NCBI RefSeq assembly: GCF_051307035.1
Contig: NZ_CP195536.1
Span: 2,190,001 to 2,222,000, forward strand
Origin: Psychrobacter sp. DM4
GTDB lineage: Bacteria > Pseudomonadota > Gammaproteobacteria > Pseudomonadales > Moraxellaceae
DNA length: 32,000 nucleotides
Direction: 5' to 3'
The notes under the pieces were generated by a model. That model ran no database searches and was not told the origin of the DNA. It saw only the letters and a program-made list of their open reading frames with translations. Numbering within the stretch: position 1 is the stretch's first letter; every line of letters starts with the position of its first letter. Shown in pieces: positions 25,388-26,320 of this stretch. A program made the position numbers and the translations under genes.

Positions 25388-26320
25388 TTATCCATCTTCA
25401 CAATGCCTACTTACTACGACATTGACACTTATTATTCTTGGGTCTTCAAAAACGGCTAAATTTTGAGTAAGCTTCATAGTTGTCGTACAAAAAATAGTAT
25501 AGTCATCCTCTATAGCCTCGGTTACTTCACATGTTTGTTCTAAGCTAGGAGGTCTACTAGCACTCATTACACAGATTATATCTTTGATGTCAGTCATATT
25601 AATTCCAGCTTTATTTAACCCTTCCAAATAATTACTCTTGAAACTATCCTTGTTATCTTCGCCTGTATAAATTGTTGGAAGTATATTTAATAGTCTGTTA
25701 CCGCTGAATACATGCTTCCAATCATTAAAGTCATAGCCAATCATAGAGTCGTCCTGCCTATAAACGCTACAAACTGTAGTTACAACTGAATCTATAAAGG
25801 AGTAATAAAAGTTATAACTCTCAATACTCATATCGTTTACAAAATCATTTTTTGCTTGTGATGTGATGAAAGGTATAGCAAAAGTAGGAATAGATGATAG
25901 TGTGCTCGCCTTATCTCTTAAAGCATTCTGGGGTTTGGTCTTGAAACTACTTATTTCACCTATGGTTGAAGGAAGGATTGCAAAAGTCAGTGCTGATATA
26001 GTAGCTACTTCTTCTTGAAAAACGCGTAAACCATCAAAGCTAGCCTCCTTTTCAACTAAAAAAACTATGACTTTCTGACTTTTGAGTTGCTGATCTCTAT
26101 CGACTTCTGTCATATTCTTTAAATCGTCTAAACTAACTATTTTAAAATCTGAATCATGGATATCGATTTTTAAATATCTATTAGAGGCTTTATTAAACCT
26201 ATCTCTACCAATATTCTGCGCTACCTTCTCAGTTATTTGACCTGTTGTGACGAGCATAAATCCTTCAGGTTCTTTGTGATTAGGAATATCACTCATTGTA
26301 TATTTAGAAGTACTGCTCAT
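25388..26320 (-). CDS. hypothetical protein, 310 aa; possible highly divergent FtsZ/tubulin-superfamily fold without GTP-binding glycine loops
   Basis: Uninterrupted ORF in a very AT-rich context. My manual alignment to E. coli FtsZ, recalled from memory, is collinear across the core. Example blocks (window protein vs FtsZ):
- VDRDQQLKSQKVIVFLVEKEASFDG vs [29 protein letters not shown]
- MIGYDFNDWKHVF vs LMNVDFADVRTVM
- TGEDNKDSF vs SGEDRAEEA
- IKDIICVMSASRPPSLEQ vs ARGVLVNITAGFDLRLDE

No statistical score was computed. Confidence 0.55.
   Translation of the reverse strand: MSSTSKYTMSDIPNHKEPEGFMLVTTGQITEKVAQNIGRDRFNKASNRYLKIDIHDSDFKIVSLDDLKNMTEVDRDQQLKSQKVIVFLVEKEASFDGLRVFQEEVATISALTFAILPSTIGEISSFKTKPQNALRDKASTLSSIPTFAIPFITSQAKNDFVNDMSIESYNFYYSFIDSVVTTVCSVYRQDDSMIGYDFNDWKHVFSGNRLLNILPTIYTGEDNKDSFKSNYLEGLNKAGINMTDIKDIICVMSASRPPSLEQTCEVTEAIEDDYTIFCTTTMKLTQNLAVFEDPRIISVNVVVSRHCEDG

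What the first reader, a model, noticed from the sequence alone, without database searches (positions are those of the whole stretch)
25388..26320. The 310-aa protein is collinear with the FtsZ core but lacks the GTP-binding loops while retaining a T7-like DxxD
I aligned this protein by hand to E. coli FtsZ, recalled from memory. The blocks appear in the same order and with similar spacing (window protein vs FtsZ):
- aa22 MLVTTGQ vs IKVIGVGGGG
- aa49 YLKIDIHDSD vs FFAVNTDAQA
- aa73 VDRDQQLKSQKVIVFLVEKEASFDG vs [29 protein letters not shown]
- aa110 ALTFAIL vs ILTVAVV
- aa143 SIPTFAIPFITSQ vs VDSLITIPNDKL
- aa193 MIGYDFNDWKHVF vs LMNVDFADVRTVM
- aa219 TGEDNKDSF vs SGEDRAEEA
- aa245 IKDIICVMSASRPPSLEQ vs ARGVLVNITAGFDLRLDE
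- aa296 IISVNVVVSR vs LRVTVVATG

The glycine-rich T1 loop (GGGG) and T4 loop (GGGTGTG) are replaced, and the T2/T3 region is about 24 aa shorter, so the protein probably cannot bind GTP itself. The two acidic residues of the T7 synergy loop (D-F-N-D, nt 25706-25741) are kept.

A subunit that can insert a T7 loop into a partner but cannot bind nucleotide could act as a filament cap, a sensor or a decoy. Possible partners are host FtsZ or phage tubulins such as PhuZ/TubZ. That functional idea is speculation.
Basis: inference. Interest (0 to 1): 0.75.

Follow-up and report, generated by a model that had tools for sequence, protein, structure and literature searches.

The report
Possible FtsZ-like protein without GTP pocket
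A 310-residue orphan protein found only in Psychrobacter, next to a candidate anti-phage nuclease, may be a degenerate copy of the cell-division protein FtsZ that lost its GTP-binding loops and kept the loop that contacts a neighbouring subunit; the resemblance is real but weak and needs a proper structure.

Summary
The ORF (25388-26320, minus strand, 310 aa) is a real gene. It has dN/dS of about 0.3 and about 23 homologue clusters, all named ones from Psychrobacter. It matches nothing in Pfam, NCBIfam, PADLOC, PHROGs or PDB sequences.

The GTP motifs are absent: no tubulin signature in 22 of 22 members, and 3.5% glycine against 12.5% in FtsZ.

The family's most conserved stretch (aa 181-202) carries D197 and D200. 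These align with FtsZ T7 residues D209 and D212.

Evidence for an FtsZ fold is mixed:
- One low-confidence AlphaFold model gave FtsZ as all 26 top PDB hits (E = 3e-4).
- A second model gave flavodoxin-like and Ras-like hits first, with FtsZ at rank 14.
- HHalign is not significant.
- An ungapped 77-100-residue match to FtsZ T7-S9 is reached by 0 of 50 unrelated proteins and about 0.3% of shuffles.
- The N-terminal half shows no sequence signal.

The gene lies in a low-GC island beside uvrA, divergent from a PDC-S26 nuclease. It is separable from the nuclease: absent at one locus and IS-disrupted at others.

Verdict: plausibly (about 50%) an FtsZ-derived pseudo-GTPase. Its function is untested.

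The parts
25388..26320 (-). 310-aa ORF, a Psychrobacter-restricted orphan protein and candidate FtsZ-like pseudo-GTPase
   Evidence: ORF listed. About 23 homologue clusters at 65% identity or more; every hit that carries an organism name is Psychrobacter. Only one full-length cluster among 1.84 billion representatives. dN/dS 0.29-0.35. No Pfam, PADLOC, NCBIfam or PHROG hit.
25829..26263 (-). aa 20-164: N-terminal alpha/beta domain (beta-alpha repeats) with no glycine-rich nucleotide-binding loops
   Evidence: AlphaFold secondary structure. The best-modelled part is aa 20-110 at pLDDT 60-82. Foldseek finds flavodoxin-like and Ras-like folds at E of 2.6e-3 or weaker. No tubulin signature or GGG. 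No sequence signal against the FtsZ N-terminal half.
25763..25825 (-). aa 166-186: long predicted helix in the position of FtsZ core helix H7
   Evidence: Predicted as helix 169-186 and 166-186. At offset +12 it maps to FtsZ 178-198. The H7 placement rests on FtsZ domain descriptions in PMC8456036 and my own knowledge of residue numbers.
25706..25765 (-). aa 186-205 VYRQDDSMIGYDFNDWKHVF: the most conserved block of the family, a T7-loop/H8-like segment with invariant D197 and D200
   Evidence: Conservation is 0.96-0.98 for aa 181-200 against a mean of 0.81. Invariant columns are listed. Aligned to FtsZ 204-217 by BLASTP and HHalign. DF.D is present in 20 of 22 members.
25406..25705 (-). aa 206-305: C-terminal alpha/beta domain in the position of FtsZ S7-H9-S8-H10-S9-S10
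   Evidence: The ungapped windows at query 194-270 and 197-296 lie on the +12 diagonal against the FtsZ profile; 0 of 50 natural proteins and about 0.3% of shuffles reach them. With the FtsZ C-terminal-half HMM, 14 of 1050 decoys score as well. The predicted element order is strand/helix/strand/helix/strand/strand.
26321..26414 (.). 94-bp divergent intergenic region shared with the nuclease gene; likely promoter region
   Evidence: 83% mean identity across six Psychrobacter loci. One sigma-70-like site at 26371-26399 on the plus strand, which is no more than chance overall.
26415..27707 (+). 430-aa PD-(D/E)XK nuclease-family protein, PADLOC candidate defence gene PDC-S26; divergent neighbour
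   Evidence: Pfam PDDEXK_4 at E = 3.9e-27. PADLOC PDC-S26 at E = 1.1e-106. 100% identical to a Psychrobacter sp. DM4 protein.
25309..25338 (+). Hairpin plus T-run between the 3' ends of the 88-aa ORF and the 310-aa gene; likely a bidirectional terminator
   Evidence: Terminator-like site with 13 pairs. It is a copy of the hairpin after uvrA.
25350..27700 (.). Low-GC island (29-37% GC, flanks 44-53%) holding the two genes
   Evidence: Composition profiles. Other Psychrobacter loci share homology with this block.

Best explanation
The ORF encodes a real cytoplasmic protein restricted to Psychrobacter. Its architecture follows that of FtsZ: an alpha/beta N-terminal domain, a long central helix, a conserved loop plus short helix, and an alpha/beta C-terminal domain.

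The nucleotide-binding loops T1, T3 and T4 have been lost, so it is most likely a pseudo-GTPase that cannot bind GTP. What selection preserves best is the T7/H8-like segment, including the two aspartates that in FtsZ hold the catalytic water. Next best preserved are the S8-H10 loop (SLEQ) and the S9-like strand (FCTTTM). In FtsZ these elements make up the 'bottom' face that docks onto the GTP-bearing face of the next subunit.

The inferred mechanism is protein-protein docking through this face. The partner would be the GTP-bearing face of an FtsZ or tubulin-type subunit, most simply the host FtsZ. The protein's own opposite face could not support further polymerisation. It would then act as a monomer sequesterer, end-binder or GAP-like factor, or as an FtsZ look-alike decoy.

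It travels in a horizontally acquired low-GC island beside uvrA together with a PDC-S26 nuclease, but it is an accessory gene and not an obligatory partner of that nuclease.

**Shown:** the gene is real and under purifying selection; the GTP motifs are absent; conservation peaks at the DxxD block; the genomic association holds and the gene is separable from the nuclease.

**Inferred:** the FtsZ fold, homology to FtsZ, the binding partner, and any role in division control or defence.
For: **Fold and similarity**
- Foldseek with model 1: the top 26 PDB hits are all FtsZ (best 1rq2_B, E = 3.3e-4, probability 0.97, 250-280 aligned columns), followed by tubulins.
- Foldseek with model 2: FtsZ is again in the top 15 of 350,542 chains (8grw_B, E = 0.019, 219 columns).
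- Model 2's flavodoxin-like top hits cover only the N-terminal 60% or so of the protein. They fit an FtsZ N-domain that lacks strand S3, which would have strand order 2-1-4-5-6. This is my inference.
- BLASTP's best local alignment with E. coli FtsZ is query 192-239 against FtsZ 204-256.
- HHalign's best in-register alignment is query 192-271 against FtsZ 204-283, reached by 1 of 200 column shuffles. A relaxed alignment is collinear over 245 columns, with deletions at T3 and T4.
- Ungapped-window scan: the best 77- and 100-residue windows lie on the +12 diagonal. 0 of 50 natural proteins reach them, and 6 and 5 of 2000 shuffles do. 21 of 22 family members use the same register at W=77.
- With the FtsZ C-terminal-half HMM, 14 of 1050 decoys score as well as the window protein.

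**Motifs and selection**
- The conservation maximum is at aa 181-200. D197 and D200 are invariant.
- GTP motifs are absent in 22 of 22 members.
- dN/dS is 0.29-0.35.

**Background on FtsZ**
- The T7 aspartates hold the catalytic water and insert into the neighbouring subunit's pocket (PMC8936486; PMC8456036).
Against: - Both AlphaFold models are poor (pLDDT 41.3 and 48.9, pTM 0.31 and 0.44). TM-scores to FtsZ are only about 0.28, with rmsd about 12 A.
- Model 2's best hits are generic flavodoxin-like and Ras-like folds.
- There is no Pfam Tubulin or FtsZ_C hit for any of 19 members, even at E up to 10.
- The PDB profile search finds no FtsZ.
- HHalign probability is below 2%. With a second real FtsZ alignment the top hit is out of register.
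- 3 of 50 unrelated proteins reach the HHalign score.
- Pairwise alignment is at chance level.
- The N-terminal half shows no signal.
- The T7 Asn equivalent is a Gly. A bare DxxD is a low-information motif and occurs four times in this protein.
- The window-length choice in the diagonal scan was partly post hoc. W=50 shows nothing.
- There is no evidence of any kind on binding partners.
Confidence: 0.48

Rival explanations
1. It is an unrelated orphan alpha/beta protein: a flavodoxin-like or generic three-layer N-domain plus an unclassified C-terminal domain. The likeness to FtsZ comes from the shared beta-alpha periodicity of alpha/beta proteins plus one short chance motif. It would be an independent cargo gene of a variable island, with some other activity. 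For example, the acidic cluster QDD...DFND could be a metal or ligand site.
For: - Model 2, the better of the two models, hits flavodoxin-like domains, Ras-family GTPases and CpaE first.
- No profile method reaches significance.
- The natural-protein null for HHalign gives 3 of 50.
- The N-terminal half has no FtsZ signal.
- The family is too narrow for reliable inference: Neff 1.6 and one cluster in 1.84 billion representatives.
Against: - The top 26 hits of model 1 are exclusively FtsZ. FtsZ recurs in the top 15 for model 2, although FtsZ chains are a tiny fraction of the PDB.
- The long ungapped in-register similarity of the C-terminal half is not reached by any of 50 natural proteins.
- The conservation peak coincides with the T7/H8 position.
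Confidence: 0.37
2. Whatever its fold, the protein is the dedicated partner of the adjacent PDC-S26 PD-(D/E)XK nuclease, as antitoxin, immunity factor, sensor or regulator. The two would form a two-gene defence or toxin-antitoxin module driven from the shared divergent promoter region.
For: - The divergent pair with a spacer of about 95 bp is conserved at seven or more Psychrobacter loci.
- Both genes share the same low GC content.
- The intergenic region is 83% conserved.
Against: - Nuclease homologues at about 40% identity stand alone in other contexts with no such neighbour.
- A 67%-identical nuclease sits directly beside uvrA with no trace of the 310-aa gene (L096).
- In L093 and L095 the 310-aa gene is split by an IS630 insertion at codon 254 while the nuclease gene stays intact. 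This argues against an essential antitoxin.
- Identities of the two proteins across loci do not track each other.
- PADLOC models PDC-S26 as a single-gene candidate.
Confidence: 0.12
3. The ORF is a spurious open frame in AT-rich DNA and not a gene.
For: AT-rich DNA yields long ORFs less readily than GC-rich DNA, so there is no positive evidence for this reading. Its only support is the lack of any database annotation beyond 'hypothetical protein'.
Against: - The frame is intact in many genomes at 65-95% protein identity.
- dN/dS is 0.29-0.35 with dS up to 0.66.
- Conservation is strongly uneven and block-wise.
Confidence: 0.01

Closest known systems
FtsZ (bacterial tubulin homologue; Pfam Tubulin PF00091 + FtsZ_C PF12327)
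   Same: - The order of predicted elements matches: alpha/beta N-domain, long core helix, conserved loop plus short helix, and a beta-alpha-beta-alpha-beta-beta C-domain.
- There is in-register similarity from the T7 loop to S9.
- Two aspartates sit at the positions of D209 and D212.
- FtsZ is the top structural hit for one model.
   Different: - There is no T1 GGGG loop, no T4 tubulin signature and no T3.
- N207 is replaced by Gly.
- There is no C-terminal linker or conserved tail peptide; the protein ends just after the S10-like strand.
- No Pfam or HMM hit.
- It is encoded in a mobile low-GC island, not in the dcw division cluster.
[quoted passage not shown]
   Same: ARC3 is a precedent for an FtsZ-derived domain used as a regulator of FtsZ assembly rather than as a polymerising GTPase. 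The FtsZ-like domain and the inhibitor role are stated in PMC12232670 and bioRxiv 10.1101/2024.01.08.574726. That the ARC3 domain lacks GTPase motifs is from my own knowledge.
   Different: ARC3 is eukaryotic and multidomain (middle and MORN domains) and works within the chloroplast Min system. No sequence comparison was made here, and common descent is not implied.
FtsZ monomer sequesterers and end-cappers: SulA, MciZ, MipZ
   Same: The proposed outcome is the same: binding to one longitudinal face of FtsZ to block or destabilise filaments. MipZ caps the plus end (PMC9897490, title). MciZ is discussed in PMC8936486.
   Different: These proteins have unrelated folds, and SulA binds the T7 face of FtsZ. 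The protein here would present a T7-like face to the opposite, GTP-bearing surface. No interaction has been shown.
PDC-S26 (PADLOC phage-defence candidate, PD-(D/E)XK nuclease PDDEXK_4)
   Same: The adjacent gene is a clear member. The 310-aa gene shares its island, its GC content and the divergent promoter region.
   Different: PDC-S26 is a single-gene candidate. Its homologues elsewhere lack this neighbour. The 310-aa protein matches no PADLOC model.
Immune sensing centred on FtsZ (CapRel sensing phage T7 Gp0.4 in complex with FtsZ)
   Same: It shows that FtsZ is contested between phage and host and can take part in immune activation (PMC13423816, abstract). This makes an FtsZ look-alike in a defence island conceivable.
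   Different: That system uses the genuine FtsZ and a CapRel toxin-antitoxin fusion. Nothing links it to the present protein.

Membership tests
FtsZ/tubulin GTPase superfamily | T4 loop tubulin signature motif [SAG]GGTG[SAT]G, which contacts the alpha and beta phosphates | tested here: not met
   0 of 22 family members carry it, against 73 of 74 metagenomic FtsZ. HHalign places a 14-residue deletion there. The motif's role is described in PMC8456036.
FtsZ/tubulin GTPase superfamily | T1 glycine-rich loop (GGGGxN) | tested here: not met
   No GGG in any member. The window protein has no GG at all. Glycine content is 3.5% against 12.5%.
FtsZ/tubulin GTPase superfamily | T6 asparagine (E. coli N165), which contacts the guanine base | tested here: inconclusive
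   In the relaxed HHalign alignment, IPND aligns with IPTF, so N165 aligns with T146. The N-terminal alignment is not statistically supported.
FtsZ/tubulin GTPase superfamily | T7 loop N-x-D-x-x-D after core helix H7 | tested here: inconclusive
   D197 and D200 are invariant and align with D209 and D212. The Asn position is G195. N.D..D appears in only 2 of 22 members, anywhere in the sequence. A bare DxxD has low information content.
FtsZ/tubulin GTPase superfamily | Two-domain fold: Rossmann-like N-domain (S1-S6, H1-H6), core helix H7, C-domain (H8-H10, S7-S10) | tested here: inconclusive
   Model 1 gives FtsZ as the top 26 Foldseek hits at E = 3e-4, but with TM about 0.28. Model 2 gives FtsZ at rank 14, E = 0.019, behind flavodoxin-like and Ras-like folds. 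Both models have pLDDT below 50.
FtsZ/tubulin GTPase superfamily | Significant match to family profiles (Pfam Tubulin or FtsZ_C; profile-profile) | tested here: not met
   No Pfam hit for 19 members at E up to 10. PDB profile search finds no FtsZ. HHalign P = 0.04-0.16. Only the ungapped-window and C-half HMM tests give P of about 0.003-0.013.
FtsZ/tubulin GTPase superfamily | GTP binding, GTP hydrolysis, head-to-tail polymerisation | not testable with these tools
   This needs biochemistry. The loss of motifs predicts no GTP binding.
PDC-S26 candidate defence system (for the 310-aa protein as a component) | Match to a PADLOC PDC-S26 model, or constant co-occurrence with the nuclease | tested here: not met
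   The 310-aa protein has no PADLOC hit. It is absent next to nuclease homologues at L008-L011, L096 and L098. The neighbouring 430-aa protein is a member (E = 1e-106).
Flavodoxin-like fold proteins (N-terminal domain) | Five-stranded parallel sheet in order 2-1-3-4-5 with flanking helices | tested here: inconclusive
   Foldseek with model 2 gives top hits 3hly and 3u7r at E = 2.6e-3 to 6e-3 and TM 0.4-0.5 relative to the target. The model confidence is low, and strand order could not be read from the tool output.
ARC3-type FtsZ-derived regulators | FtsZ-like domain joined to middle and MORN domains | not tested
   No extra domains fit in 310 aa. No sequence comparison with ARC3 was run.

The most novel reading that the evidence does not exclude
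A bacterial FtsZ-derived pseudo-GTPase that has lost its own nucleotide pocket and keeps a functional T7 'activator' face. It would be carried on a mobile defence island with a PD-(D/E)XK nuclease. It would work either by docking onto the GTP face of host FtsZ to halt division during infection, or as an FtsZ mimic that traps phage-encoded FtsZ inhibitors. This would be the first cytoskeletal-protein decoy or cap of this type in bacterial immunity.
Probability: 0.15. Interest if true: 0.8.

Novelty: new variant of a known kind. Interest (0 to 1): 0.5.

Why it matters
If the fold assignment holds, this would be a rare bacterial case of an FtsZ/tubulin-fold protein that gave up nucleotide binding and kept the inter-subunit catalytic loop. 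That would be a natural 'half-subunit'.

Such a protein would be a ready-made probe of FtsZ filament polarity and of T7-driven GTP hydrolysis. Its place in a defence-type island would tie cell-division machinery to conflict with phages and other mobile elements.

If the assignment fails, the gene is one more genus-restricted orphan of unknown function next to a candidate defence nuclease.

Tried and rejected
**Annotation libraries with no result**
- Pfam, NCBIfam, PADLOC and PHROGs scans of the protein gave no hit. A Pfam scan of all 19 members also gave none.
- PDB sequence searches gave only S100-A8 and catalase-peroxidase noise. Both phmmer and the profile search were tried.

**Homologue searches**
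- The exhaustive profile search of 1.84 billion representatives found one full-length cluster. It also found two repeat proteins, P0025 and P0026.
  - Their E-values are artefacts of summing 8-11 repeats at 4-8 bits each. The best single-domain E-value is above 1e5. I rejected them as homologues.
- A homologue search seeded with E. coli FtsZ returned only near-identical enterobacterial FtsZ. It was useless for a diverse profile.
  - I replaced it with 80 real FtsZ loci from metagenomes. Only the retrieved real sequences went into the profiles.
- tblastn against plasmids and phages found nothing.
- The genome-contig scan with the nuclease found only close Psychrobacter relatives.

**Unavailable or uninformative structure searches**
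- The Foldseek BFVD viral library gave only noise, with E of 0.015 or weaker and no PhuZ or TubZ.

**Alignment statistics**
- HHalign results change with the template build: the T7 register scores 21.7, and an out-of-register H3-S4 match scores 17.6-18.2. I do not count HHalign as support.
- Pairwise Smith-Waterman and global alignment are at chance level.

**Ideas considered and set aside**
- TIR, PIN, Toprim, HAD, SLOG and receiver-domain motifs, by eye only. None fits the conserved residues.
- The antitoxin idea, disfavoured by the IS-disrupted and absent alleles.
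Full report
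**1. What is in the sequence**

The ORF at 25388..26320 on the minus strand encodes 310 aa. It lies 94 bp from, and divergent to, a 430-aa ORF at 26415..27707.

The neighbour is a PD-(D/E)XK nuclease-family protein:
- Pfam PDDEXK_4, E = 3.9e-27.
- It matches the PADLOC candidate defence gene PDC-S26, E = 1.1e-106.

Both genes sit in a low-GC block at about 25350-27700. Its GC content is 29-37%, against 44-53% in the flanks. The block lies just downstream of uvrA (21775..24693).

The nuclease is 100% identical to a protein of Psychrobacter sp. DM4. The window is therefore a Psychrobacter chromosome, not a phage.

**2. The gene is real but an orphan**

- A search of 5.8 billion clustered proteins found 23 relatives at 65% identity or more. 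Every hit that carries an organism name is Psychrobacter.
- One 1.9-kb metagenome contig labelled Flavobacteriaceae also carries the pair. This is probably a binning error.
- An exhaustive HMM search of 1.84 billion representatives found a single full-length cluster.
- Two repeat proteins in that result are artefacts of summing many weak repeat hits.
- dN/dS against four orthologues is 0.29-0.35, with dS up to 0.66.
- Pfam, NCBIfam, PADLOC, PHROGs and PDB sequence searches are all empty.
- There are no plasmid or phage homologues.

**3.

- All nine blocks are at the stated residues, and the recalled E. coli FtsZ strings are correct.
- They are collinear. The offsets are -9, -10, +10, +15, +14, +12, +12, +12, +10.
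- The glycine-rich loops are absent:
  - no tubulin signature in 22 of 22 members, against 73 of 74 real FtsZ;
  - no GGG;
  - 3.5% glycine, against 12.5%.
- The family's conservation peaks sharply at aa 181-202 (TTVCSVYRQDDSMIGYDFNDWK). Identity there is 0.96-0.98 against a mean of 0.81.
- D197 and D200 are invariant. The position of the FtsZ T7 asparagine is a glycine (G195).

**4. Is the FtsZ likeness more than chance? Sequence tests**

Tests that show nothing:
- Pairwise alignment is at chance level.
- I built FtsZ profiles from real metagenomic FtsZ genes. HHalign gave at best query 192-271 against FtsZ 204-283, with score 21.7 and P = 0.04.
  - 1 of 200 column shuffles reached it.
  - 3 of 50 unrelated natural proteins score as well.
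  - Other template builds put an out-of-register match first.
  - I therefore treat HHalign as uninformative.

Tests that show a weak signal, in the C-terminal half only:
- I ran a simpler scan for the best ungapped window against the FtsZ profile, over all windows and all diagonals.
- The best 77- and 100-residue windows fell on the +12 diagonal. These are query 194-270 and 197-296, matching FtsZ 206-308, from T7 to about S9.
  - 0 of 50 natural proteins reached these scores, and 6 and 5 of 2000 shuffles did.
  - The register is the same in 21 of 22 family members at W=77.
  - A 50-residue window shows nothing. The choice of window length is partly post hoc.
- With an HMM of the FtsZ C-terminal half, 14 of 1050 decoys score as well as the window protein.

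The N-terminal half gives no signal with its own HMM or in the diagonal test.

**5. Structure prediction**

With only about 20 close homologues (Neff 1.6), AlphaFold2 gave low-confidence models.

| | Model 1 | Model 2 |
|---|---|---|
| Target | window protein | P0020, 65% identical |
| pLDDT / pTM | 41 / 0.31 | 49 / 0.44 |
| Top Foldseek PDB hits | 26 of 26 are FtsZ from seven or more species; E from 3.3e-4; 250-280 aligned columns; then tubulins, then small GTPases | flavodoxin-like domains, Ras-family GTPases, CpaE; E of 2.6e-3 or weaker; about 170-200 aligned columns |
| FtsZ | top, but TM only about 0.28 | rank 14 (8grw_B, E = 0.019, 219 columns) |

- The two results are less contradictory than they look. 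An FtsZ N-domain that has lost strand S3 and the GTP loops would have flavodoxin-like strand order. This is my inference.
- FtsZ chains are a minute fraction of the PDB, yet they recur near the top in both searches.
- The BFVD viral library gave only noise. Nothing links the protein to PhuZ or TubZ.

Predicted secondary-structure elements from the two models:
- strand 20-25, helix 28-42, strand 59-63, helices 64-69 and 72-80;
- strand 82-89, helix 92-108, strand 112-118;
- helices 154-164 and 166-186, then a loop;
- helix 198-205, strand or helix 209-218, helix 224-237;
- strand 245-254, helix 260-270, strands 274-285 and 296-305.

These map one-to-one onto S1, H1, S2, H2, H3, S4, H4, S5 ... 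H6, H7, T7, H8, S7, H9, S8, H10, S9, S10 of FtsZ, with S3/T3 and T4 missing. The FtsZ element order is from PMC8456036. The residue ranges of the FtsZ elements are from my own knowledge.

**6. Genomic behaviour**

- The divergent pair occurs next to uvrA in at least seven Psychrobacter loci. Its intergenic region is conserved at 83%.
- The 310-aa gene is separable from the nuclease:
  - Nuclease homologues at about 40% identity stand alone in other contexts.
  - One 67%-identical nuclease lies directly beside uvrA with no 310-aa gene (L096).
  - In L093 and L095 an IS630 splits the 310-aa gene at codon 254 while the nuclease stays intact.
- This argues against an essential antitoxin role. It favours an accessory or independent gene in a variable hotspot rich in IS elements.

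**7. Most likely mechanism (inferred)**

If the fold is FtsZ-like, the conserved parts map to the 'bottom' longitudinal face of FtsZ. These parts are the T7/H8 block, the SLEQ loop before the H10-like helix, and the FCTTTM strand.

In FtsZ filaments the T7 aspartates hold the catalytic water over the GTP of the adjacent subunit. Incoming monomers add through their GTP-bearing top face to the T7-exposing growing end (PMC8936486).

A protein with only a T7-type face could do one of the following:
- bind the GTP face of free FtsZ monomers, or the top-exposing filament end;
- possibly fire hydrolysis, and so sequester or deplete assembly-competent FtsZ;
- act as an FtsZ look-alike that binds factors aimed at FtsZ.

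FtsZ is known to take part in phage sensing (PMC13423816). FtsZ-derived non-polymerising regulators exist in chloroplasts (ARC3). None of these steps is shown for this protein.

**8. Verdict**

- The claim that the GTP loops are missing is confirmed.
- The claim of a retained T7-like acidic pair is confirmed as a sequence fact, and it lies in the family's most constrained segment.
- The key claim of an FtsZ fold has moderate, non-decisive support, which I put at about 50%. It rests on one Foldseek result from a poor model, a weaker echo in a second model, and a modest statistical signal confined to the C-terminal half.
- By the family's defining motifs the protein is not an FtsZ/tubulin GTPase. 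At most it is a degenerate derivative.
- The phage-tubulin partner idea is not supported.
- A confident structure would settle the matter quickly.

Noticed in passing
window 26415-27707 (+): The divergent neighbour is a 430-aa PD-(D/E)XK (PDDEXK_4) protein. It matches the PADLOC candidate defence gene PDC-S26 (E = 1e-106). Its C-terminal half, about 210 aa, has no family assignment. Its stop overlaps by 4 nt the start of an alpha/beta-hydrolase gene of normal GC content (27704-28756).
   Followed up: partly
window 24720-24753 and 25311-25344: The terminator-like hairpin after uvrA is duplicated as a 34-nt direct repeat at 88% identity. The two copies flank a segment of about 550 bp (about 24755-25305) that carries an 88-aa lipoprotein-like ORF (25013-25279, lipobox ISAC). 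Four other Psychrobacter loci lack this segment: their homology jumps from the first hairpin to the second.
   Followed up: partly
window 25149-25163 and 26415-26429: An exact 15-nt direct repeat, ATGACTGTGCTCAAC, occurs twice. One copy is inside the 88-aa ORF. The other is the first five codons of the nuclease gene. Together they bracket the 310-aa gene and its promoter region. My rough estimate of the chance expectation in 3.4 kb is about 0.005-0.02. Its meaning is unknown; it could be a recombination scar or a coincidence.
   Followed up: no
L093 4248-5090 and L095 6-849 (Psychrobacter loci): An IS630-family element is inserted into the 310-aa gene at codon 254/255. The adjacent nuclease gene stays intact. 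IS256-type and IS200-like (Y1_Tnp) transposase genes are also nearby, so the region downstream of uvrA is an insertion hotspot.
   Followed up: yes
L096 4825-5007: A metagenomic Psychrobacter-like contig has the PDC-S26 nuclease (67% identity) directly after uvrA in the same orientation. It has its own terminator hairpin and upstream region, and no 310-aa gene.
   Followed up: yes
P0025 (1156 aa) and P0026 (972 aa), hits of the family profile: These two large repeat proteins have 40-58-aa repeats of the type ...LEEMGINLSNISSML.G.GAKAPETLQKL.... They matched aa 222-273 of the family profile at E = 3e-8 and 4e-4. The scores come only from summing 8-11 repeats of 4-8 bits each. This is an artefact and not homology.
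   Followed up: yes
window 256-282 aa of the 310-aa protein (nt 25475-25555): The second-best HHalign match places RPPSLEQTCEVTEAIEDDYTIFCTTTM against FtsZ H3-S4 ([27 protein letters not shown]), out of register, with a score of about 18. This helix-strand unit looks like the one that precedes the T4 loop. It shows how generic alpha/beta periodicity can mimic similarity.
   Followed up: partly
L007 (1.9-kb contig labelled uncultured Flavobacteriaceae MAG): This contig carries the same divergent gene pair. The 310-aa homologue is 67% identical and the nuclease 84% identical to the Psychrobacter genes. This is probably a mis-binned Psychrobacter contig and not a transfer to another phylum.
   Followed up: no
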